Assembly: GCA_934149405.1 (NCBI GenBank)
Contig: CAKPEV010000001.1
Location: 64,685-128,684 of the forward strand
Source: an uncultured Clostridia bacterium
Lineage (GTDB): Bacteria > Bacillota > Clostridia > TANB77 > UBA1234
Direction: 5' to 3'
Length of the DNA: 64,000 bases
The notes below the pieces were generated by a model. That model was given only the letters and a program-made list of their open reading frames with translations, searched no databases and was not told where the DNA came from. Each line of letters opens with the position of its first letter. Positions within the stretch are counted from its first letter, which is position 1. Below are positions 17,181 to 24,891 of this stretch, piece by piece. The position numbers and the translations under genes are program-made.

Positions 17181-19817
17181 TTATTTCTTGAAAGCTCCTC
17201 TGATTACAGCAAATACTTCGTTTGCTTCATCAACAGATATTCTATCGCCAACTTTAAATGTTATTGTGTTATATTCCTTAGTTGTGAATGAATCAACGTT
17301 ATATAATCCATCAACATCATCATCTTCAGAAACGTTAACTATAACAAATTCATAGTCTTCATATGTATCTTTGAATGATTGTTTTGCTGTGTTGATTTCT
17401 TTTTCTCCTTCAGTAGTCTCAACTATTGCTTTCTTACCACCGTTTGCAACTTCAGAAACATAACCATGTCCTTCAAATTGACGGTCACCAGAAGTTAATT
17501 GAGCCTCTGTTAAACCAGTAACAAGTGTGAATTCTAATTCTTTATCACTGTTTTCTTCTGTAGAGTACATTACTACAGCATATGTATTTAGTAAATCTCT
17601 ATAGTCTTCTGCTGTTGTATTAGCTGGAACTGGAACTATTAATTCATCTTCTTCGCCTTTTTCATCGATGACTGTAATTATTAAATCACCAATTTTATTG
17701 ATTTCAACAGTATCTACTTTACCGAATAGATTGTCTTCTTTGTTTGAAACTTCATCAAATAATACAACATATTTAGCTTCAGCAAATTTGTCGTCTGTAT
17801 CACTAATTACAAGAACTTTTTCTTCGTTCTTTAATTTCTTAATAGCTTTTGTTCCTTCTGAGAACTCTACTCTGTACTCATCATCAGTTGTCTTTGTTGT
17901 ACCCTTATCATCGAATATTAATGTAACAACTACAACATCTGCTGATACATCCATTCTGAATTCGCTAGATCCTGTGATTTCCATATCATCTTCGTCGAAT
18001 GTAGCATTTTGAACTCTTGTTACTTCTAAGTACTTACCATCTTTATATTCACCTGATGTGAATGCTGTATAATCTTCACTAGCATTAGCTACCAATCTCA
18101 ATTCTTCGATGTTTCCATCATTATCAAATCTAACGAATGCATATGTTCCTACGTAATCTGTATCATCAGCATACATATCTTTTGCTGCTTGTGTAGCTGC
18201 ACCTTTTGCAAATGTGTAATCATCTTTACCATTTTCATTTTCAAGACCTATTGTATATACTCTTGAAGATTCTTTTTCAACGTTAGCTGTTATTGCATAG
18301 AATCCAGCTGTGTAGTTGTCAGAATCATCTCCGATGTTTCCATCGAATTCAACTGCAACGATGTTTCCTAAGAAGTCAAGTTTTAATACAACTACTTCGT
18401 TCTTCATATCTGAATCCCAAGCACTTGCATCGAAATCTTTAGCCTCTTCATCTTCATCCTTAGGATCTTCTACATATGTAGCATTTTCAGCAACAACATA
18501 TTTCTTGTCACCAACTGTAGCTATTGTATAAGAACCAGCTTGTGTATTGTCATATTTTTCTTCAACTATCTTTGTTAATTTTCCTTTAGCTTCTGTGCAA
18601 GAAACAATATAGAATACTTCGTCACCATTTACAGTAACCTTAGAAACGATATCTCCTTCTTTGATATCTTTAATTGTTCCTCTTTCACCGTTTACGATTA
18701 CAACTTCATCTTCGTAAGTATCATATTTCCAAGCTTTATCATTTATTTTAACTGCTTTCTTAGAAGACTTATCTAAATCATAAACATATTCGCTTTCAAC
18801 TACTAATTTTGTAGCATCAGCGATCTTTTTTCTTTCGATTCTTGTGTAAGCATAATCATATGCATCACCAGAAATCTCATCATAGTCTTCGTCGATATCT
18901 TTCTTTAAGCCATCAACTAATTTGTCATTAGCTGTAGCAACCATCATTAATAATGTTTCATCATCTTCGTTTACAAGAACTTCAACTTCTGTTCCAGCAA
19001 CGAATGTATAGAAATCATTACCTTCATATTTGTATTGACAGTTCTTTTGTCCTAATTTGTCAGCTTTATCAGCCTCTGAATCGTCTAATGTTACTATTAC
19101 TTCACCATCAGCATTGATTGTGAAATCATCGAAATCTACAGTTGTATATGTGTAATCTTCGAAATATTTGTTAATCATTGTGCCAGATTTTGAATAGTTA
19201 AGACCATCTGTCTCATTCTCGCTGTTTACATCCCACATGTTAGTTCTTAACATGTTCCAGATTAATAATGCTACGTTTCCTCTTACAGCACCATCGTTGT
19301 AAGCTTTGTATTTAACGTCTTTTAATACTTTTAATTCTTGAGCTTTAGCTATGTAGTTTGTTGGCCATGTTCCTTTAGCTTCAACAACTGTCTTGTATCC
19401 TAAAACTCTGATTGCCATTGTAACAGCTTCTGCATATGTAACTGTTGCTTCTGGAGCGAATCTTCCATCTGGATATCCGTTAATGTAACCATATTGAGCA
19501 GCTACATTGATATATCCTGAAGCCCAATGATCTGCAGATACATCTGAAAAGTTTGTTGCACCTTTTGCAACGTTAGCAGCTGGCTCTAATCCAGCAGCTA
19601 CTACTAATAATTTAGCCATTTGTGCTCTTGTTACTATTGCATCTGGACGATATGTTCCATCTGGATAGCCTTCAACAACACCAAGCTCTACTAATGCACT
19701 AACTGCGGCTTCATAATCTGTTCCTTTGATATCTTCAATAGATGTTCCAGCAAATGCTGTTGTGAACATAGATAGAACCATTGAAAGTGCAAGTACTAAT
19801 GATACTATTTTCTTCAT
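17181..19817 (-). CDS. SLH-domain surface protein B. Full length, with a signal peptide, three SLH domains and a variable acidic beta-rich body. The start is trimmed to MKKIVSLVLAL..., which follows an AAGGAGG RBS.
   Basis: Signal peptide ...TTAFAGT. SLH motifs FSDVSADHWASGYINVAAQYGYINGYPDGRFAPEATVTYAEAVTMAIRVLGY. Confidence 0.85.
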   Translation of the reverse strand: MKKIVSLVLALSMVLSMFTTAFAGTSIEDIKGTDYEAAVSALVELGVVEGYPDGTYRPDAIVTRAQMAKLLVVAAGLEPAANVAKGATNFSDVSADHWASGYINVAAQYGYINGYPDGRFAPEATVTYAEAVTMAIRVLGYKTVVEAKGTWPTNYIAKAQELKVLKDVKYKAYNDGAVRGNVALLIWNMLRTNMWDVNSENETDGLNYSKSGTMINKYFEDYTYTTVDFDDFTINADGEVIVTLDDSEADKADKLGQKNCQYKYEGNDFYTFVAGTEVEVLVNEDDETLLMMVATANDKLVDGLKKDIDEDYDEISGDAYDYAYTRIERKKIADATKLVVESEYVYDLDKSSKKAVKINDKAWKYDTYEDEVVIVNGERGTIKDIKEGDIVSKVTVNGDEVFYIVSCTEAKGKLTKIVEEKYDNTQAGSYTIATVGDKKYVVAENATYVEDPKDEDEEAKDFDASAWDSDMKNEVVVLKLDFLGNIVAVEFDGNIGDDSDNYTAGFYAITANVEKESSRVYTIGLENENGKDDYTFAKGAATQAAKDMYADDTDYVGTYAFVRFDNDGNIEELRLVANASEDYTAFTSGEYKDGKYLEVTRVQNATFDEDDMEITGSSEFRMDVSADVVVVTLIFDDKGTTKTTDDEYRVEFSEGTKAIKKLKNEEKVLVISDTDDKFAEAKYVVLFDEVSNKEDNLFGKVDTVEINKIGDLIITVIDEKGEEDELIVPVPANTTAEDYRDLLNTYAVVMYSTEENSDKELEFTLVTGLTEAQLTSGDRQFEGHGYVSEVANGGKKAIVETTEGEKEINTAKQSFKDTYEDYEFVIVNVSEDDDVDGLYNVDSFTTKEYNTITFKVGDRISVDEANEVFAVIRGAFKK
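19205..19440. repeat. Copy 2 (in expressed gene B) of the inverted near-identical block. The core is at about 19223..19290.
   Basis: Reverse complement of copy 1. Confidence 0.7.
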
Positions 19818-19963
19818 TAGAAAATCCTCCTTGTAAATTTTTTGTTTTTCGAAAGAAAAGTTTTGTTTATTAGATTGCCCCCTTCTTTCATTTTCTGCTC
19901 TAAACAATCTAACATGTACCTATTGATTATGGAATTTCATGCCATTTCCTTAAGTACAATGTC

Positions 19964-20166: not shown

Positions 20167-20680
20167 TTAAAACATATCTAACGGATTAATAAATTTCCCA
20201 TTCCTGCGTATACCTAGATGGAGATGGACACCTGTCGTAGCCCCATTCAACTTACCATTCTCTATATATTTGGGTCCAACTTTCCCTATTTTTTCTCCAC
20301 GCTCAATTCTATCTCCTTTTTTTACAAAAATATCAGAATCCATATGTGCGTAACGAGATTCTAAATTATTTGAGTGTGAGATTATAACCATGTAGCCTCC
20401 GATATTTATCAAAACCGGAAAATTTAACAATTCCACTTTCTATTGAATGAATAAAACTTCCTTGATTGGCTAAGATATCAATTCCTTTATGGTACGTAGA
20501 CGCACCTTTGGTAGGACTTTTTCTATAACCAAATTTTGAAGATATGCCAGTAAAACTAGGCGTGGGCCAATAACATTTTGATTCAATTTTAATATTTGCT
20601 GAATTTTCACCTGATAAAATAGTGATAAAGATAGTAAAAAAAATCATCACAGAAATAAAACTATAATAAAACTTTTGCAT
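20167..20680 (-). pseudogene. M23 family metallopeptidase split into two overlapping ORFs by a +1 indel in an A4/T4 homopolymer (around 20411-20414). Probably a sequencing artefact.
   Basis: The N-terminal part carries HKGIDI. The C-terminal part carries GGYMVIISHSNNLESRYAHM...GVHLHLGIRRNG. Removing one T restores ...KFSGLINIGGYMVI... Confidence 0.7.
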
Positions 20681-20849
20681 TTTCTCTCTTTTCTAGGTCC
20701 AAGTTTTTTATATTTCCCCAACACTTGCATTTTAACACATAGATTTACTTTTTTCAATCATAAAGTACCACTCTTTCTGATTTTAATTTTTCACATGAAC
20801 TTAGTCTTTGAAACATCTGCCTTTTATATTTTAGTTTCTAACATAAAAA

Positions 20850-20899
20850 ATACTTTTTAAGTAGACTTTGGCTATTTCAAGTGTCTACTTAAAAAGTAT
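20850..20899 (-). terminator. Strong 17-bp perfect hairpin (atactttttaagtagac / gtctacttaaaaagtat) with a flanking T-run on the minus strand. Terminator of the nrd operon.
   Basis: Read directly from the sequence. Confidence 0.6.
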
Positions 20900-20922
20900 C
20901 ATATATGGCTTTTATATCTTTT

Positions 20923-21132
20923 TTATTTATTCAAATATAATTTGCAACAACATTTGCTTTCTTCTCTCATTTTTTTGCATGGACATATTGTATCATCGTT
21001 TTGTGTTATTACGCATGGGCAATGTCCATCTTTTCTTTTTATTCCTTCTAATATTTTTTCTACATGTTCGCTATTTTCATTTAATTTCATATTTGGATTT
21101 AATTTTAATCCTTTTTCTATTAGTTCGTTCAT
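20923..21132 (-). CDS. Small Cys-rich protein resembling the ferredoxin-thioredoxin reductase catalytic subunit (ferredoxin:disulfide reductase-like). Motifs CPC-x10-CPC-x8-CCC.
   Basis: ...GHCPCVITQNDDTICPCKKMREESKCCCKLYL. It is the last gene of the nrdD operon. Confidence 0.5.
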   Translation of the reverse strand: MNELIEKGLKLNPNMKLNENSEHVEKILEGIKRKDGHCPCVITQNDDTICPCKKMREESKCCCKLYLNK

Positions 21133-21146
21133 ATTCTTTACCTCTC

Positions 21147-21812
21147 CTATATTATTCCTCTTACCGTTGTTGGCAAGTATTCGTTACATTCTTTTTGTAT
21201 TTCTCTTAATTTTTCTGCAGCGTATGGTATTACTGTTTTGTTATGATCAAAATAATTTTGTAACACATATTTTTTTGAGCCAACACTTTTTAGGTATTCT
21301 GCTATTTTTAATACATTTTCTGTATTTACATACTTTGGATATACTGTTGTTCTAAACTCGTATTTTATTCCGCTTTTTAATATTATATCAACTGATTTTT
21401 TTATTTTTTCCACATCGATTTCTGTTTGTGTTATTGCATTATAATTGTCGAAATCATTTTTTATATCCATACCGACATAATCGATTTTATCTATTACTTT
21501 TTCAAGTATTTCTGGTGCATATCCATTTGTGTGTATGCCTATTACAAATCCATTATCATATAATATGTTTATTATTTTTTCAAAATCTTTATGGATTGTG
21601 CATTCTCCACCCGAAATTATTACATGATTTACGAAGTCTTTTCTTTCTAATAATTTAGGTAATATTTCTTTTTCAAAATCTAATTCTTTTTCTTTTAATA
21701 ATCCTTTATTATAACAAAATTCACAATCAAAGTTACATACTCCTGTAAACATTGTTGTACAAACATTGTCCGGATAGTCTATCATACTTGACCATATTAC
21801 TGATTTAATCAT
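21147..21812 (-). CDS. nrdG: Anaerobic ribonucleoside-triphosphate reductase activating protein NrdG (radical SAM). The start is trimmed to MIKSVIWSS..., which follows an AGGGAGG RBS.
   Basis: CNFDCEFCYN (CxxxCxxC). Confidence 0.85.
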   Translation of the reverse strand: MIKSVIWSSMIDYPDNVCTTMFTGVCNFDCEFCYNKGLLKEKELDFEKEILPKLLERKDFVNHVIISGGECTIHKDFEKIINILYDNGFVIGIHTNGYAPEILEKVIDKIDYVGMDIKNDFDNYNAITQTEIDVEKIKKSVDIILKSGIKYEFRTTVYPKYVNTENVLKIAEYLKSVGSKKYVLQNYFDHNKTVIPYAAEKLREIQKECNEYLPTTVRGII

Positions 21813-21991
21813 TTGTTTTTCCTCCCTTTGGCACATGGTTGTGTTCATCTCTTATGGAGCACACTTAAGCCATATTTATGCGATATACTTTATGCCTTTT
21901 CGTAAATTAATTTACACTACCGCATATAAAGCATTAGAAAAAATTAGGCGAGCTTTTGGGCTCGCCTTAAGACCATACTTATAATAATTTA

Positions 21992-22213
21992 TTACATTAC
22001 AACTATGCTTTTTAATTCTTCTAAATCTCCTGAATATACCTTGCCATTAACTTCTACAGCTGGCATTTGTTCTATATCTAGGCTTACAAGTTTTGCTCTT
22101 GCTTTAAAATCCTCTTCTACATTTGTTTCTTCATATGATATATGACTATTCTTCATATAAGATTTTAGCTCCTCACACATTGGACAGTTTGGTATTGTGT
22201 ATGTTTTTATCAT
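21992..22213 (-). CDS. NrdH/glutaredoxin-like small redoxin (thioredoxin fold, CPMC active site).
   Basis: MIKTYTIPNCPMCEELK... 73 aa. Confidence 0.7.
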   Translation of the reverse strand: MIKTYTIPNCPMCEELKSYMKNSHISYEETNVEEDFKARAKLVSLDIEQMPAVEVNGKVYSGDLEELKSIVVM

Positions 22214-22253
22214 AATAATTTCCCCCTAAAATATTTTCTTATTATGTTTTTAT

Positions 22254-24446
22254 TTAAGCTTTGTCGATTTCAGCTTTTTGTTTTGCAACTTGTTCTGGAT
22301 CAATGTTTTCTCTTAATCTATCTGCAAGTTCTGCTCTCTTTCCGCTATTGAATTTGTCTATAAATACATAGTAACCTGTAATTCTTGTAACCCCTCTTAA
22401 ATTGATGCTTCCGCATTTTGGACATTGGTCTAATAATCCGTTGCTCTTTGTTCTGCAATCTTGGCAAAGTGTATATTCTGGTGAAAGAACCCATTGTACA
22501 CATTTTGTTTTATACCAAGTTGTTTCAAGCAAATTATATATTGCTTTTGGACTTGGAGCATTATTTCCAGACCAAATATGAATCATGCTTCCAGCTTCGA
22601 CTAATGTATGAAATTTTGATTGTTTTTGTAATCTTGTTATATAATCAACGTCACTGTCTGCTGCGAAGTGAACAGAGTTTGTGTAATATACGCCAAAACT
22701 ATTTTCTTTGTGATATGCTAAATCTCCATATTTCTTAATATCTAGTTTTGCAAATCTACCAGCTGTGCTTTCTGCTGGTGTCTCTTCTAGTTTTATTGCT
22801 ATGCCATATTTTTTAGATAGCTCTTTTGTTTTTTGATACATGAATGAAACTATTTCTAATCCTAACATATAAGCTTCATCTGACTCATGTAATTGTTGTC
22901 CTATTAAGTTATATACGCACTCGTTTAGTCCAACGATTCCTATTAAGTATGATATATTTTTTAATCTTATGTATGCTTTTCCATCCATTCCTTTTGTATA
23001 GAAGCTTAATGGTGAATTTTCTAAGCTTGCTAGTTTCCATACATAATTTTGTCTTTGAATATGAGCTCTAGCACACATATCCATTCTCTTTTCAAGTTCT
23101 TGATAGAAAGCTTCTTTATTCTTTCCAACTTTAAGTGGAATGTTTGGCATGTTTATTGAAACATTTTGTCCACCAACAAATCTTAATTCTTCTGGTGTGT
23201 TTATTAACTTTTTATCCTCTTCTGAGAAATCTATTTTTAGTCTGCAACATTGTGAAACTGAAAATGCATTTCTGTCGAATATGAAATAAGGGCATCCATT
23301 TTTACTTGCTGATTCACAAGCAACCATAAGCAATGCTTTTGTTTTTGGATCTGTGAAGCATTCTTCGTTTATATGTAAATTTATCTTTGGGAAAGCAAAT
23401 GGCATTCCATCTGCATCGCCTTCTCCAACAACCTCTAGTAATGCTTTTGCAAACAATCTAGATTCTTTTTCGAAATCTTTATATAATAAAACTCTGTATC
23501 CATTTTCTTCTGCAAATGCTTTTGCTTCTTCTTGAGTATCAAATCTAAAGATGTTGTCTAATTCATCTGTTACCATATATTTGCCTTTTGGTCCCATTGC
23601 ATAAACTGATGCATAGTGATGAGGAATTGATGCATAAACATTAAAATCTGAGAATGCAACTTGTCCACCTCTAGCTCCTGCAAGTTGAGATAAGTCAAAT
23701 ATAAGTGTTTGTGCTAATTGTTTAATGTCTTTGTATGGCATACCTACAAGTAGTGGGGCAAAGAATACATTTATTGCTTCCCAACCAATTGCTCCTGCAA
23801 ATTGACCTTGTAAGAATTGTGTAAATGAACATATATGTCTTGCTAAAACATTTGCACTATTTGCTGGTTTTGAATTTGATGGAATTGTAGGTATATTTCT
23901 AATTCCGTTCTTTTTAACATACTCTGGTGAGTGTCCACTACAATAGAATCTGTCTATCATTCCTAAGTCGTGGATATGTAATTCACCAGCCAAGTGTGCT
24001 CTTGAAATATCTTGATCAAATACATTTTTTAATGCATACTCTTTCAAAATTCTTTCAGCTAATGTAAGGTTGATTGATTCTGGATTGTGTGCTGTGTTTC
24101 CATTTTCTTTATTTGCGTTTTCGATAATCTCTGTAATGTTGTAGAATGGAATTGAAGCTTCAGAATTATTCTTTAACTCTTTATTTAAACCTTTCTCTAG
24201 TAATACATTGTTAACCATTGATCTTATAAGAGATGTACTAACTTGTGTTAGGTTTGCACTCATTAGTCTTTCTGTAACAATTCCTGCAACTTCTTTTGCA
24301 AGTGGTTTGTCACAACCGGCTTCTCTTATTAGTGCGTCAACGATTGCACTTTCATCGTACTCTTGTGATTCTGCTTTTGTTGCTGAGTCAACCATTAGCG
24401 CTATGTCTAATGCGTTGTTTTCTCTTTTTAATTTGATTACGTTCAT
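22254..24446 (-). CDS. nrdD: Anaerobic (class III) ribonucleoside-triphosphate reductase NrdD. It has an N-terminal ATP-cone, a C-terminal Zn ribbon and the glycyl-radical motif.
   Basis: C-terminus CQDCRTKSNGLLDQCPKCGS...TRITGYY. Confidence 0.95.
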   Translation of the reverse strand: MNVIKLKRENNALDIALMVDSATKAESQEYDESAIVDALIREAGCDKPLAKEVAGIVTERLMSANLTQVSTSLIRSMVNNVLLEKGLNKELKNNSEASIPFYNITEIIENANKENGNTAHNPESINLTLAERILKEYALKNVFDQDISRAHLAGELHIHDLGMIDRFYCSGHSPEYVKKNGIRNIPTIPSNSKPANSANVLARHICSFTQFLQGQFAGAIGWEAINVFFAPLLVGMPYKDIKQLAQTLIFDLSQLAGARGGQVAFSDFNVYASIPHHYASVYAMGPKGKYMVTDELDNIFRFDTQEEAKAFAEENGYRVLLYKDFEKESRLFAKALLEVVGEGDADGMPFAFPKINLHINEECFTDPKTKALLMVACESASKNGCPYFIFDRNAFSVSQCCRLKIDFSEEDKKLINTPEELRFVGGQNVSINMPNIPLKVGKNKEAFYQELEKRMDMCARAHIQRQNYVWKLASLENSPLSFYTKGMDGKAYIRLKNISYLIGIVGLNECVYNLIGQQLHESDEAYMLGLEIVSFMYQKTKELSKKYGIAIKLEETPAESTAGRFAKLDIKKYGDLAYHKENSFGVYYTNSVHFAADSDVDYITRLQKQSKFHTLVEAGSMIHIWSGNNAPSPKAIYNLLETTWYKTKCVQWVLSPEYTLCQDCRTKSNGLLDQCPKCGSINLRGVTRITGYYVFIDKFNSGKRAELADRLRENIDPEQVAKQKAEIDKA

Positions 24447-24891
24447 TACTAAAACCCCCTCTTATGTTTTTACATTTTTGTTTTCTTTTGTAATTGTTGT
24501 CCTTTTATCTTTTGTATTTTTTATCTATATTTATAATTAAAATCTTCTTAAAAAATTATCGAATCATTTTTAAAATCTAAAATCATTTTAACACAACTAA
24601 ACGATTTTTTACAACAAAAAAAGCAAAAAAAATAATCTTTTTTATTTGCCAGCAAATCAGCCTATATCAAGCATTACACGGTTTCCATTAAAAGTAAAAC
24701 TGTATTATGTTTTTTGTGTTTACATATGTGTATTTACATAGTTTTCTTATGTCAATTTTTTATTTTATAATGATTTATATAATTAATTTTATGTAATTTT
24801 TAAAACAGATTTTATTTGAAATTTTTATTTAAATAAATCTAACTAGAATTTATTTTAAAATGTAAATTTAATAATATATAAATTTCCTATC

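What the first reader, a model, noticed from the sequence alone, without database searches (positions are those of the whole stretch)
20850..24446. nrdD operon carrying its own reductant chain: NrdH-like redoxin plus a ferredoxin:thioredoxin-reductase-like Cys-rich protein
The operon order is nrdD (22254..24446), then a CPMC redoxin (21992..22213), nrdG (21147..21812), and a 69-aa protein with CPC-x10-CPC-x8-CCC (20923..21132) that resembles the FTR catalytic subunit. A 17-bp hairpin terminates the operon. In Methanosarcina a ferredoxin:disulfide reductase plus NrdH delivers electrons to a class III RNR. A bacterial operon with the same trio would point to ferredoxin-dependent rather than formate-dependent turnover of NrdD here. 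About 450 nt of AT-rich leader lies upstream of nrdD.
Basis: partly seen in the sequence, partly recalled or inferred. Interest (0 to 1): 0.5.

Follow-up and report, generated by a model that had tools for sequence, protein, structure and literature searches.

The report
Thiol-type anaerobic RNR with mini-FDR
A gut Clostridia bacterium encodes its oxygen-sensitive DNA-precursor enzyme (class III ribonucleotide reductase) next to a small redoxin and a 69-residue iron-sulfur disulfide reductase that probably feed it electrons from ferredoxin; the same gene set recurs in related bacteria and in phages, but no function has been tested.

Summary

- NrdD has the disulfide-type signature (C169, Q-C400-C401-R, E554 aligned with T. 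maritima C125, SCCR and E495). It lacks the formate-type residues.
- The 69-aa protein misses Pfam by itself. A family profile hits only M. acetivorans FDR and FTR catalytic chains in the PDB (E 3e-9 to 7e-8). An AF2 model (pLDDT 95) matches only those folds.
- All six FTR cysteines are invariant. The His of CHC is replaced by Cys, and that position varies across the family.
- The four-gene order is kept in 24 of 35 genomes that carry a relative of the small protein.
- Mini-FTRc genes also sit near CCR+Glu-type NrdDs in at least 22 of 34 viral contigs and in Clostridium phage c-st.
- Grx::NrdD, Grx::FDR and NrdD-like::FTRc fusions exist.

Corrections: the spacing is CPC-x9-CPC. A conserved terminator-like hairpin separates nrdD-grx from nrdG-FTRc. 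The real leader is probably about 130 nt. The redoxin is not a bona fide NrdH. The electron donor is inferred, and biochemistry is untested. I rate it a new variant of a known kind.

The parts
24585..24614 (-). Promoter-like element: TTGTAA, 18-nt spacer, extended -10 TG-n-TAAAAT. It lies about 140-170 nt upstream of the nrdD start codon.
   Evidence: Consensus scan. It is the best-conserved block in a MAFFT alignment of the upstream regions of the window and 20 related loci. The function is inferred.
22254..24446 (-). nrdD: class III ribonucleotide reductase, 730 aa, disulfide-type (NrdD2-like). Key residues are C169 (bottom-face Cys), C400 (extra Cys), C401 (thiyl Cys), E554, a Zn ribbon (C661/C664/C675/C678) and the glycyl-radical motif RITG691Y. 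The N-terminal ATP-cone is weak.
   Evidence: Pfam NRDD 3e-133 and TIGR02487 418 bits. Alignments to T. maritima, T4, S. thermophilus and P. copri NrdD. Motif positions, and their invariance in 24 orthologues.
21992..22213 (-). Glutaredoxin-fold redoxin, 73 aa, active site C10-P-M-C13. It is the presumed direct reductant of NrdD.
   Evidence: PF00462 1.4e-10. The closest solved relatives are a 78-aa CPPC 'thioredoxin' (3ZIJ, 6e-10) and NrdH of C. ammoniagenes (1R7H, 9e-6). It lies next to NrdD in all 24 conserved genome loci and in five of the six relatives sampled from the NrdD side, and is fused to NrdD in the sixth, L077. dN/dS is 0.04-0.25.
21946..21967 (-). Internal terminator-like hairpin (AGGCGAGC-CCAAAA-GCTCGCCT followed by a T-rich tail, AATTTTTTCT) between the redoxin gene and nrdG.
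   Evidence: Scan and fold. A GC-rich hairpin plus T-run sits at the same place in L001-L020, with different stem sequences. It is absent from the tightly packed operons L022, L024, L030 and L031.
21147..21812 (-). nrdG: radical-SAM activase of NrdD, 221 aa from the start codon supported by the ribosome-binding site.
   Evidence: TIGR02495 158 bits against a 131 cutoff. AGGGAGG lies upstream of the ATG at 21812.
20923..21132 (-). Minimal FTR-catalytic/FDR-like protein, 69 aa: C38-P-C40, x9, C50-P-C52, x8, C61-C62-C63. By alignment to Synechocystis FTR, the predicted [4Fe-4S] ligands are C38, C50, C52 and C61, and the redox-active disulfide is C40-C63.
   Evidence: Profile and fold evidence. 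The six Cys are invariant in 120 family members. JGI names the identical sequence 'ferredoxin-thioredoxin reductase catalytic subunit'. dN/dS is 0.04-0.23. The ligand assignment rests on published FTR structures, recalled from my own knowledge.
20843..20900 (-). Intrinsic terminator: 18-bp stem (20849-20900) plus a T-run (20843-20848).
   Evidence: RNA fold dG -24.9 kcal/mol, z = -7.2, with 0 of 200 shuffles as stable. The weak Rfam miRNA hits here are the hairpin itself.

Best explanation
The cluster encodes a disulfide-type (NrdD2-like) class III ribonucleotide reductase together with a private electron-supply chain.

Proposed mechanism, step by step:
1. NrdG installs the glycyl radical on G691. 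This step is established chemistry for the family.
2. Each turnover oxidises the C169/C400 thiol pair to a disulfide instead of consuming formate. This is inferred from the active-site residues.
3. The 73-aa CPMC redoxin re-reduces that disulfide. This is inferred from its invariable adjacency to NrdD and from a natural NrdD::Grx fusion.
4. The 69-aa protein is a stripped-down homologue of the ferredoxin:thioredoxin reductase catalytic subunit and of ferredoxin:disulfide reductase. It would bind a [4Fe-4S] cluster through C38, C50, C52 and C61, and use the adjacent C40-C63 disulfide to pass two single electrons from a low-potential donor to the redoxin. The donor is most likely ferredoxin. This step is inferred from homology, from the six invariant Cys, and from a natural Grx::FDR fusion.

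The donor is not encoded nearby.
For: NrdD subtype:
- QCCR aligns with T. maritima 328-SCCR-331 and T4 288-MGCR-291 (motif correspondence from PMC4493059).
- C169 aligns with Tm C125, and E554 with Tm E495. T4 and S. thermophilus have Tyr at that column and P. copri has Leu.
- These residues are invariant in 24 orthologues.

Small protein:
- A family profile hits only FDR and FTRc chains in the PDB.
- The AF2 model has pLDDT 94.9, and all 13 Foldseek hits are FTRc or FDR with TM 0.62-0.72.
- Six Cys are invariant across 120 diverse members.
- It is under purifying selection.

Linkage:
- nrdD-grx-nrdG-FTRc order is kept in 24 of 35 genome loci, down to 72% NrdD identity and 46% small-protein identity.
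- In viral contigs, at least 22 of 34 mini-FTRc genes lie within 6 kb of an NrdD. All 17 full-length ones are of the CCR + Glu type, although only 21-28% identical to the window NrdD.
- Clostridium phage c-st has grx-nrdG-nrdD-FTRc-like.

Fusions:
- NrdD::Grx (L077).
- Grx::FDR (PDB 7PWE).
- NrdD1-like::mini-FTRc (L036).

Precedent:
- FDR plus NrdH supports the M. barkeri class III RNR. I know this from the title of Wei et al. 2015 and from Table 1 of PMC9176816.
Against: - There is no biochemistry. Cluster binding, the donor and the acceptor are all inferred.
- The window protein itself gets no Pfam or NCBIfam hit.
- The His of the FTR CHC motif is Cys here, and that position is free to vary in the family.
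- No ferredoxin-motif ORF lies in the 64-kb window or in the flanks of the 24 loci.
- The small gene is absent from some close relatives of the cluster (L075, L037), so it is not obligatory.
- Many family members are not nrd-linked (11 of 35 genome loci; one sits next to a WCGPC thioredoxin).
- In the window's clade a terminator-like hairpin groups the small gene with nrdG rather than with the redoxin.
Confidence: 0.65

Rival explanations
1. The redoxin is kept reduced by the cell's general thioredoxin reductase (NADPH- or ferredoxin-flavin type). The mini-FTRc has a different job in the cluster: it supplies the electron that NrdG needs to cleave SAM and activate NrdD, or it otherwise serves the activase.
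For: In the window's clade the small gene is tightly coupled to nrdG (14-nt gap). It is separated from nrdD-grx by a conserved terminator-like hairpin. NrdG needs a low-potential one-electron donor (established knowledge). The small gene is missing from some nrdD-grx-nrdG clusters.
Against: A pure electron carrier would need only four cluster ligands. Here both cysteines equivalent to the FTR redox-active disulfide (C40, C63) are invariant in 120 members. Every detectable homologue of known function is a disulfide reductase. Grx::FDR fusions exist. [quoted passage not shown]
Confidence: 0.12
2. The mini-FTRc acts directly on NrdD, by reducing its active-site disulfide or docking on the enzyme, without passing through the redoxin. 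The redoxin would be a parallel or alternative route.
For: Two proteins (P0337, P0338) are NrdD1-like bodies with the mini-FTRc fused in place of the glycyl-radical domain. That suggests physical proximity of the FTRc domain to an NrdD dimer. My loose pattern scan found no Grx-like ORF in most of the NrdD-containing viral loci (not tested rigorously).
Against: Known FTR and FDR enzymes reduce thioredoxin-fold proteins. The redoxin is the most constant neighbour of this NrdD type and is sometimes fused to it. The fusion is rare, with only two sequences; their close relatives are ordinary 713-aa NrdD1.
Confidence: 0.12
3. NrdD here is an ordinary formate-dependent enzyme, and the two small redox genes are unrelated passengers.
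For: Formate is the reductant of the best-studied class III RNRs (E. coli, T4, L. lactis; PMC4493059).
Against: The active site carries the CC pair and the Glu that define the thiol-type. At the Glu column, T4 (a formate-type NrdD1; PMC4493059) and S. thermophilus NrdD have Tyr and P. copri NrdD has Leu, none of which the window shares, and its Cys loop reads QCCR rather than T4's MGCR. The gene association recurs across NrdDs only 21-28% identical to this one.
Confidence: 0.03

Closest known systems
Methanosarcina barkeri class III RNR (NrdD3) with NrdH and ferredoxin:disulfide reductase (Wei et al. 2015, Biochemistry 54:7019; paper not held, so known from its title and from Table 1 of PMC9176816)
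   Same: The proposed chain has the same logic: low-potential donor, then a [4Fe-4S] FDR, then a small Grx-fold redoxin, then a thiol-dependent NrdD. The redoxin is encoded in the RNR cluster.
   Different: The host is a bacterium or phage, not a methanogen. NrdD has the active-site Glu (NrdD2 signature), whereas NrdD3 lacks it (PMC4493059). The reductase has 69 aa, against a 173-residue deposited chain for M. acetivorans FDR 4TPU (named 'Rubredoxin' in the PDB). Its spacers are shorter (x9/x8) and its third motif is CCC rather than CYC. It is encoded inside the nrd cluster.
NrdD2-type class III RNRs of Neisseria bacilliformis and Thermotoga maritima (Wei et al. 2014, not held; Aurelius et al. 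2015, PMC4493059)
   Same: Third Cys next to the thiyl Cys (xCCR), bottom-face Cys preceded by Tyr (Y168-C169, like Tm Y124-C125), and a Glu aligned with Tm E495. Reduction by a protein dithiol rather than by formate.
   Different: Identity to TmNrdD is low, with only partial phmmer alignments (E = 2e-17). The motif is QCCR, not SCCR. The N. bacilliformis enzyme was run with Trx/TrxR/NADPH. Here a dedicated Grx-fold redoxin and an Fe-S reductase are encoded alongside. The physiological reductant of TmNrdD was left unidentified (PMC4493059).
Ferredoxin:thioredoxin reductase catalytic subunit (PF02943; Synechocystis 1DJ7/2PU9, Arabidopsis 7BZK) and FDRs (M. acetivorans 4TPU; Desulfotalea Grx/FDR fusion 7PWE)
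   Same: Same fold (TM 0.62-0.72). Same six cysteines in register, including the ...CPC..MRE..C.C.L[YF]... block.
   Different: About 40% shorter. There is a 7-residue deletion between the CPC motifs relative to FTRc. Cys replaces the catalytic-site His (FDRs have Tyr). No variable subunit is encoded nearby. The window protein itself falls below Pfam detection.
Clostridium phage c-st genes CST074-CST077 (AP008983)
   Same: Same four components: glutaredoxin, nrdG, nrdD (mature SCCR motif plus NIEQIPAE) and a 63-aa CPC/CMC/CHC protein. The depositors noted that protein as 'weakly similar to ferredoxin-thioredoxin reductase catalytic chain'.
   Different: The gene order is grx-nrdG-nrdD-FTRc. 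Its NrdD appears to carry an intein inserted between the two Cys of SCCR (my reading of the sequence). The third motif is CHC. As far as I could find, no function was proposed or tested.

Membership tests
Class III ribonucleotide reductase (NrdD) | NRDD catalytic domain above the curated thresholds | tested here: met
   PF13597 445.9 bits (cutoff 26.2) and TIGR02487 418 bits (cutoff 326).
Class III ribonucleotide reductase (NrdD) | C-terminal glycyl-radical motif, a four-Cys Zn ribbon, and an adjacent NrdG activase | tested here: met
   RITG691Y, C661xxC664...C675xxC678. NrdG TIGR02495 is above cutoff in the same cluster.
NrdD2 (thiol-dependent subtype of Wei et al., as summarised in PMC4493059) | Third active-site Cys adjacent to the thiyl-radical Cys (xCCR) | tested here: met
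   Q399-C400-C401-R402, corresponding to Tm 328-SCCR-331 and T4 288-MGCR-291. Invariant in 24 orthologues (PMC4493059).
NrdD2 (thiol-dependent subtype of Wei et al., as summarised in PMC4493059) | Active-site Glu (absent from NrdD1 and NrdD3) | tested here: met
   E554 in KLEETPAE aligns with Tm E495 in NIEQVPAE. T4 and S. thermophilus have Tyr there and P. copri has Leu. That E495 is the defining Glu is recalled from Wei et al. 2014, which I could not re-read.
NrdD2 (thiol-dependent subtype of Wei et al., as summarised in PMC4493059) | Turnover supported by a protein dithiol and not by formate | not testable with these tools
   This needs an anaerobic enzyme assay.
NrdH-redoxin | Family HMM above cutoff, with the C[VM]QC and WSGFRP[DE] motifs | tested here: not met
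   TIGR02194 scores 36.7 bits against a cutoff of 85.75, and NF007657 scores 18.5 against 131. The motif is CPMC and there is no WSGFRP. It is a Grx-fold redoxin closest to the YruB type (51 bits, also below cutoff) and to PDB 3ZIJ. It may work like NrdH but is not a member. The motif definitions are from my own knowledge.
FTR catalytic subunit / FDR (PF02943 FeThRed_B) | Six Cys arranged as CPC...CPC...CxC (four cluster ligands plus the redox-active pair) | tested here: met
   C38, C40, C50, C52, C61 and C63 align with the FTRc and FDR cysteines and are invariant in 120 family members.
FTR catalytic subunit / FDR (PF02943 FeThRed_B) | Significant sequence match to the family model | tested here: inconclusive
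   The window protein has no Pfam hit even at E <= 10. 8 of 15 close homologues hit PF02943 (best 7e-7). The family profile hits FDR and FTRc chains at 3e-9 to 7e-8, and nothing else in the PDB at E <= 1.
FTR catalytic subunit / FDR (PF02943 FeThRed_B) | FTRc fold | tested here: met
   AF2 pLDDT 94.9 and pTM 0.81. All 13 Foldseek PDB hits are FTRc or FDR, with probability 0.96-1.0 and TMq 0.62-0.72.
FTR catalytic subunit / FDR (PF02943 FeThRed_B) | His between the last two Cys (CHC) of canonical FTR | tested here: not met
   CCC here and in all 24 nrd-linked orthologues. The position varies in the mini family (C, H, R, I, K...). Solved FDRs have Tyr. This argues against canonical FTR but not against FDR-like chemistry.
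FTR catalytic subunit / FDR (PF02943 FeThRed_B) | Heterodimer with a variable subunit (FTRv), as in cyanobacteria and plants | not tested
   I did not search the cluster, the window or the genome for an FTRv homologue. The four cluster genes are otherwise accounted for.
FTR catalytic subunit / FDR (PF02943 FeThRed_B) | [4Fe-4S] binding and ferredoxin-dependent disulfide reduction | not testable with these tools
   This needs protein chemistry (UV-vis, EPR, activity assays).

The most novel reading that the evidence does not exclude
A previously uncharacterised family of minimal (about 55-90 aa) FDR-type iron-sulfur disulfide reductases is the dedicated physiological electron entry point for NrdD2-type class III RNRs. 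The module (mini-FDR plus Grx-fold redoxin plus NrdD2 plus NrdG) is mobile. It occurs in gut and rumen Clostridia and is carried by many phages of anaerobes, including the C. botulinum toxin phage c-st. That would let a phage couple dNTP synthesis directly to the host's reduced-ferredoxin pool. It would also suggest a candidate for the unidentified protein reductant of enzymes such as T. maritima NrdD.
Probability: 0.5. Interest if true: 0.62.

Novelty: new variant of a known kind. Interest (0 to 1): 0.48.

Why it matters
For class III RNRs, how the enzyme is re-reduced is the least settled part of the mechanism. Formate, Trx/TrxR/NADPH and FDR/NrdH have each been shown for one or two enzymes. 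The physiological reductant of T. maritima-type NrdD2 enzymes is still unidentified (PMC4493059).

A compact, self-contained gene set that recurs across Clostridia and phages gives a directly testable candidate chain. It would tie anaerobic DNA-precursor synthesis to the ferredoxin pool rather than to formate or NADPH.

The 69-aa protein would also be among the smallest FTR-type disulfide reductases, which makes it useful for dissecting that unusual cluster-plus-disulfide chemistry. It lacks the active-site His thought to matter in plant and cyanobacterial FTR.

The module's presence in phages, including a botulinum-toxin phage, suggests it serves as an auxiliary metabolic module during infection of strict anaerobes.

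Tried and rejected
- **Direct Pfam and NCBIfam scans of the 69-aa protein.** No hit even at permissive E. Homology appeared only with family profiles and the fold search.
- **Riboswitch or NrdR control of the leader.** No Rfam family at E <= 1 apart from two spurious miRNA hits on the terminator hairpin. No NrdR-box match at 3 or fewer mismatches near nrdD; there were 5 matches elsewhere in the window against 2.6 expected.
- **A ferredoxin gene as the nearby donor.** No CxxCxxCxxxCP ORF in the 64-kb window or in the 24 conserved loci.
- **The primary papers.** Wei et al. 2014 and 2015, and Prakash et al. 2018, are not held. Subtype definitions therefore come from Aurelius et al. 2015 (PMC4493059) and from memory, and are marked as such.
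- **Literature searches for an nrdD-FTR/FDR link in bacteria or phages.** These found nothing relevant, and nothing on PDB 7PWE. Most subscription papers are not in the library, so this is weak evidence of novelty.
- **The fusion protein P0337 as a widespread architecture.** Rejected. Only one further example exists (P0338); the other 118 listed relatives are ordinary NrdD1 with a glycyl-radical domain.
- **The crAss-like phage hits (cr106_1, cr112_1).** Marginal (E 2e-4 to 7e-4); for cr106_1, the one I inspected, the match is unannotated, lies in a tRNA array and has no NrdD nearby. Not used as evidence.
- **Lak megaphages.** They carry a good mini-FTRc ORF, but there is no NrdD within 9 kb.

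Full report
**1. What is in the sequence**

The minus strand of 20843-24614 carries four co-directional genes.
- nrdD (22254-24446, 730 aa) matches Pfam NRDD at 3e-133 and the NrdD equivalog TIGR02487 at 418 bits, above its 326 cutoff.
- Forty nucleotides downstream lies a 73-aa glutaredoxin-fold protein with C10-P-M-C13 (PF00462, 1.4e-10).
- After a 179-nt gap comes nrdG (TIGR02495, 158 bits against a 131 cutoff). AGGGAGG precedes it, and orthologues align only from residue 10-13 of the longer ORF.
- Fourteen nucleotides after the nrdG stop, behind a GGAGAGG ribosome-binding site, starts the 69-aa ORF at 20923-21132.
- The cluster ends in an 18-bp stem (20849-20900) plus a T-run, with dG -24.9 kcal/mol and z = -7.2.

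The small ORF is a real gene. Its dN/dS against 15 orthologues is 0.04-0.23. The identical protein occurs on 278 public contigs.

**2. Corrections to the observation**

- The Cys motif is CPC-x9-CPC-x8-CCC, not x10.
- The '450-nt leader' is a 514-nt intergenic region at 16-21% GC. It contains the terminator of the upstream gene.
- About 140-170 nt before the start codon sits its best-conserved block among 21 related sequences, a promoter-like TTGTAA-18-TGnTAAAAT. The 5' UTR is therefore probably about 130 nt.
- No Rfam family and no NrdR box were found there.
- A GC-rich hairpin plus T-rich tail lies between the redoxin gene and nrdG at 21967-21946. The same feature sits at that position in the 20 closest loci, with different stem sequences. 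It is absent from four more distant loci whose genes are packed 1-26 nt apart.
- The cluster in this clade may therefore be two units (nrdD-grx and nrdG-FTRc) or an attenuated operon. This qualifies the word 'operon' but does not undermine the functional link.

**3. NrdD subtype**

Aurelius et al. (PMC4493059) summarise the Wei et al. scheme. NrdD2 has a third active-site Cys and a Glu. [quoted passage not shown] They equate T. maritima 328-SCCR-331 with T4 288-MGCR-291.
- The window protein has Q399-C400-C401-R402 at that place.
- Its Y168-C169 aligns with Tm Y124-C125, the universally conserved bottom-face Cys.
- In the phmmer alignments, window K-L-E554-E-T-P-A-E lines up with Tm N-I-E495-Q-V-P-A-E. 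T4 (LYSTPAE) and S. thermophilus (VYSTPSE) have Tyr at that column, and P. copri (ILATPAE) has Leu.
- That E495 is the subtype-defining Glu is my recollection of Wei et al. 2014, which is not in the library.
- These residues are invariant in all 24 orthologues.

The enzyme is thus of the disulfide-forming, protein-thiol-dependent kind.

**4. The 69-aa protein**

On its own it hits nothing in Pfam or NCBIfam. The family-level evidence is clear.
- 24 close homologues were found. Two carry precomputed PF02943 hits and two are named FTR catalytic subunit by JGI. 8 of 15 hit PF02943 when scanned (best 7e-7).
- A profile of these 15 hits the Desulfotalea Grx/FDR fusion 7PWE at 1.6e-4, and FTR catalytic chains more weakly, with all three Cys motifs in register.
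- An exhaustive profile search found 1101 clusters (50% identity level) at E <= 1e-3. Among 147 of the 150 best hits (ids P0025-P0171), the median length is 73 aa and the dominant spacing is x9/x8.
- A 120-member alignment has exactly six invariant columns, the six cysteines.
- Its profile hits only M. acetivorans FDR 4TPU (2.8e-9), Arabidopsis and Synechocystis FTR catalytic chains (3-7e-8) and 7PWE (4.7e-8), and nothing else in the PDB at E <= 1.
- An AlphaFold2 model has pLDDT 94.9. All 13 of its Foldseek PDB matches are FTRc or FDR, with TM 0.62-0.72.

By alignment to Synechocystis FTR, C38, C50, C52 and C61 are the cluster ligands and C40-C63 is the redox-active disulfide. This assignment rests on the published FTR structures, from my own knowledge.

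Differences from canonical FTRc:
- The protein is about 40% shorter.
- It has a 7-residue deletion between the CPC motifs.
- The His of CHC is Cys in all nrd-linked orthologues. That position is variable in the family (C, H, R, I, K...), and the solved FDRs have Tyr.

**5. Is the association real?**

Searching one genome per GTDB species with the small-protein family gave 35 loci, mostly gut and rumen Clostridia MAGs.
- Twenty-four have nrdD-grx-nrdG-FTRc in that order on one strand, down to 72% NrdD identity and about 46% small-protein identity.
- The other 11 are more distant paralogues in unrelated contexts. One sits beside a WCGPC thioredoxin.

Sampling from the NrdD side gave a mixed picture.
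- L076 (74% NrdD identity) has the small gene after nrdG.
- L077 (55%) has NrdD with a C-terminal fused CPNC glutaredoxin, then nrdG, then a mini-FTRc.
- L038 (55%, phage-like) has nrdD-grx-nrdG and then an ORF cut by the contig end that reads ...DGYCPC.
- L075 and L037 lack the small gene.

The redoxin is therefore the constant partner and the mini-FTRc a frequent but dispensable one.

The viral data are the most telling.
- IMG/VR holds 34 viral contigs with a mini-FTRc.
- At least 22 of them have an NrdD within 6 kb, only 21-28% identical to the window enzyme.
- All 17 full-length ones carry xCCR plus E-x-[VT]PAE.
- In GenBank, Clostridium phage c-st has CST074 glutaredoxin, CST075 NrdG, CST076 NrdD and CST077. 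CST076 has NIEQIPAE and, by my reading, an intein between the two Cys of SCCR. The depositors annotated CST077 as weakly similar to the FTR catalytic chain.

The chance that an nrdD lies within 6 kb of a random gene is well under 1% per genome, so this linkage cannot be coincidence.

**6. Mechanism**

*Shown:* the gene identities, the active-site residue pattern, the FTRc/FDR homology and fold, conservation of the redox-active Cys pair, and the recurrent linkage.

*Inferred:*
- NrdD forms a C169-C400 disulfide on each turnover.
- The CPMC redoxin reduces that disulfide.
- The mini-FDR reduces the redoxin, using a [4Fe-4S] cluster and the C40-C63 disulfide.
- The donor is reduced ferredoxin or flavodoxin. 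No donor gene is nearby.

Three natural fusions support the order of the chain:
- Grx::FDR (7PWE).
- NrdD::Grx.
- An NrdD1-like body with a mini-FTRc fused in place of its glycyl-radical domain.

The precedent is the M. barkeri FDR/NrdH/NrdD3 system.

The main rivals are that the small protein serves NrdG activation, or that it acts on NrdD directly. The invariant disulfide pair argues against a pure electron-carrier role.

**7. Family membership**

- NrdD: a member.
- NrdD2 signature: met on all sequence criteria.
- NrdH: not a member, because it falls below the cutoffs and lacks the family motifs. It is a Grx-fold redoxin that probably works like NrdH.
- FTRc/FDR: a member at superfamily level (six Cys, fold, profile). 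It is not a canonical FTR, because it has no CHC His and is below Pfam detection. Whether it has a variable-subunit partner was not tested.

**8. Novelty and score**

The type of chain is known from one methanogen. Annotation pipelines already label this protein FTRc, and the c-st depositors noticed the resemblance in 2005.

What appears not to have been described, in the literature I could search, is threefold:
- A minimal FDR family is systematically linked to NrdD2-type RNRs in bacteria and phages.
- This family lacks the FTR His.
- The module is phage-borne.

I could not read Wei et al. 2015 or Balsera et al. 2013, which might already mention it. I rate it a new variant of a known kind, with interest 0.48.

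Noticed in passing
L036:1800-3935 (ENA ERZ27257320 k141_1810799); also protein P0338: This is a 711-aa protein with an ATP-cone and a formate-type NrdD1 body (SPMGCRNF, LYGTPSE). Its Zn ribbon and glycyl-radical domain are replaced by a mini-FTRc domain (...GYCPCVLVKSEDTICPCKKMREENECICGLYIIE). It sits directly upstream of an NrdD2-grx-(truncated?) nrdG cluster that has no free-standing FTRc gene. Only two such fusions were found (81% identical to each other). The other 118 listed relatives are normal 713-aa NrdD1 with PF01228. It could be a functional docking scaffold or a rearrangement product.
   Followed up: partly
L077:408-2849 (NCBI GCA_046128215.1, protein P0336): NrdD (55% identical to the window's) with a C-terminal fused glutaredoxin domain (CPNC) after the glycyl-radical motif. 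It is followed by nrdG and a 68-aa CPC/CIC/CHC mini-FTRc.
   Followed up: partly
L073:4020-6956 (Clostridium phage c-st CST076): The 979-aa phage NrdD seems to contain an intein inserted exactly between the two cysteines of the SCCR active-site motif (...LASC|CFDGQ...ITHN|CRLTSS...). This is my reading of the sequence and I did not test it further.
   Followed up: no
window 20167-20680 (- strand): An M23 peptidase gene is split into two overlapping ORFs in different frames: 20366-20680 holds the N-terminal part and 20167-20436 the C-terminal part. The same frameshift is present in the independent MAG contig L001 (93% identical DNA). It is therefore a real pseudogene or a programmed shift rather than a sequencing error.
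   Followed up: partly
L001:5833-6000, L002:5802-6000, L019:5844-6000 versus window 21133-21146: In three related genomes, 150-200 nt of unrelated sequence is inserted between nrdG and the mini-FTRc gene, where the window has only 14 nt. The L002 insert holds two copies of a hairpin-forming repeat (GGAGC..AGTGTGCTCCATAAAA). A similar copy (CTTAAGTGTGCTCCATAAGAG) lies just upstream of nrdG in the window, at about 21850-21872. This may be a small REP-like intergenic element.
   Followed up: no
L078:9001-9174 (Prevotella phage Lak-B5) and 14 other Lak megaphage records: Lak megaphages encode a mini-FTRc (CPC-x9-CPC-x8-CCC, 41-43% identical to the window protein). In the one record I inspected, Lak-B5, no NrdD, NrdG or Grx was detectable within 9 kb, so its partner there is unknown.
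   Followed up: partly
L034:82-575: A stand-alone CPC/CMC/CHC mini-FTRc lies immediately upstream of a classical WCGPC thioredoxin gene in a sheep-gut Clostridia MAG. This fits the wider family being general ferredoxin:thioredoxin-type reductases.
   Followed up: no
window 17181-19907 (- strand): A 908-aa ORF downstream of the cluster. From its sequence it looks like an S-layer-homology-repeat surface protein with a signal peptide. I judged this by eye only and ran no family scan.
   Followed up: no
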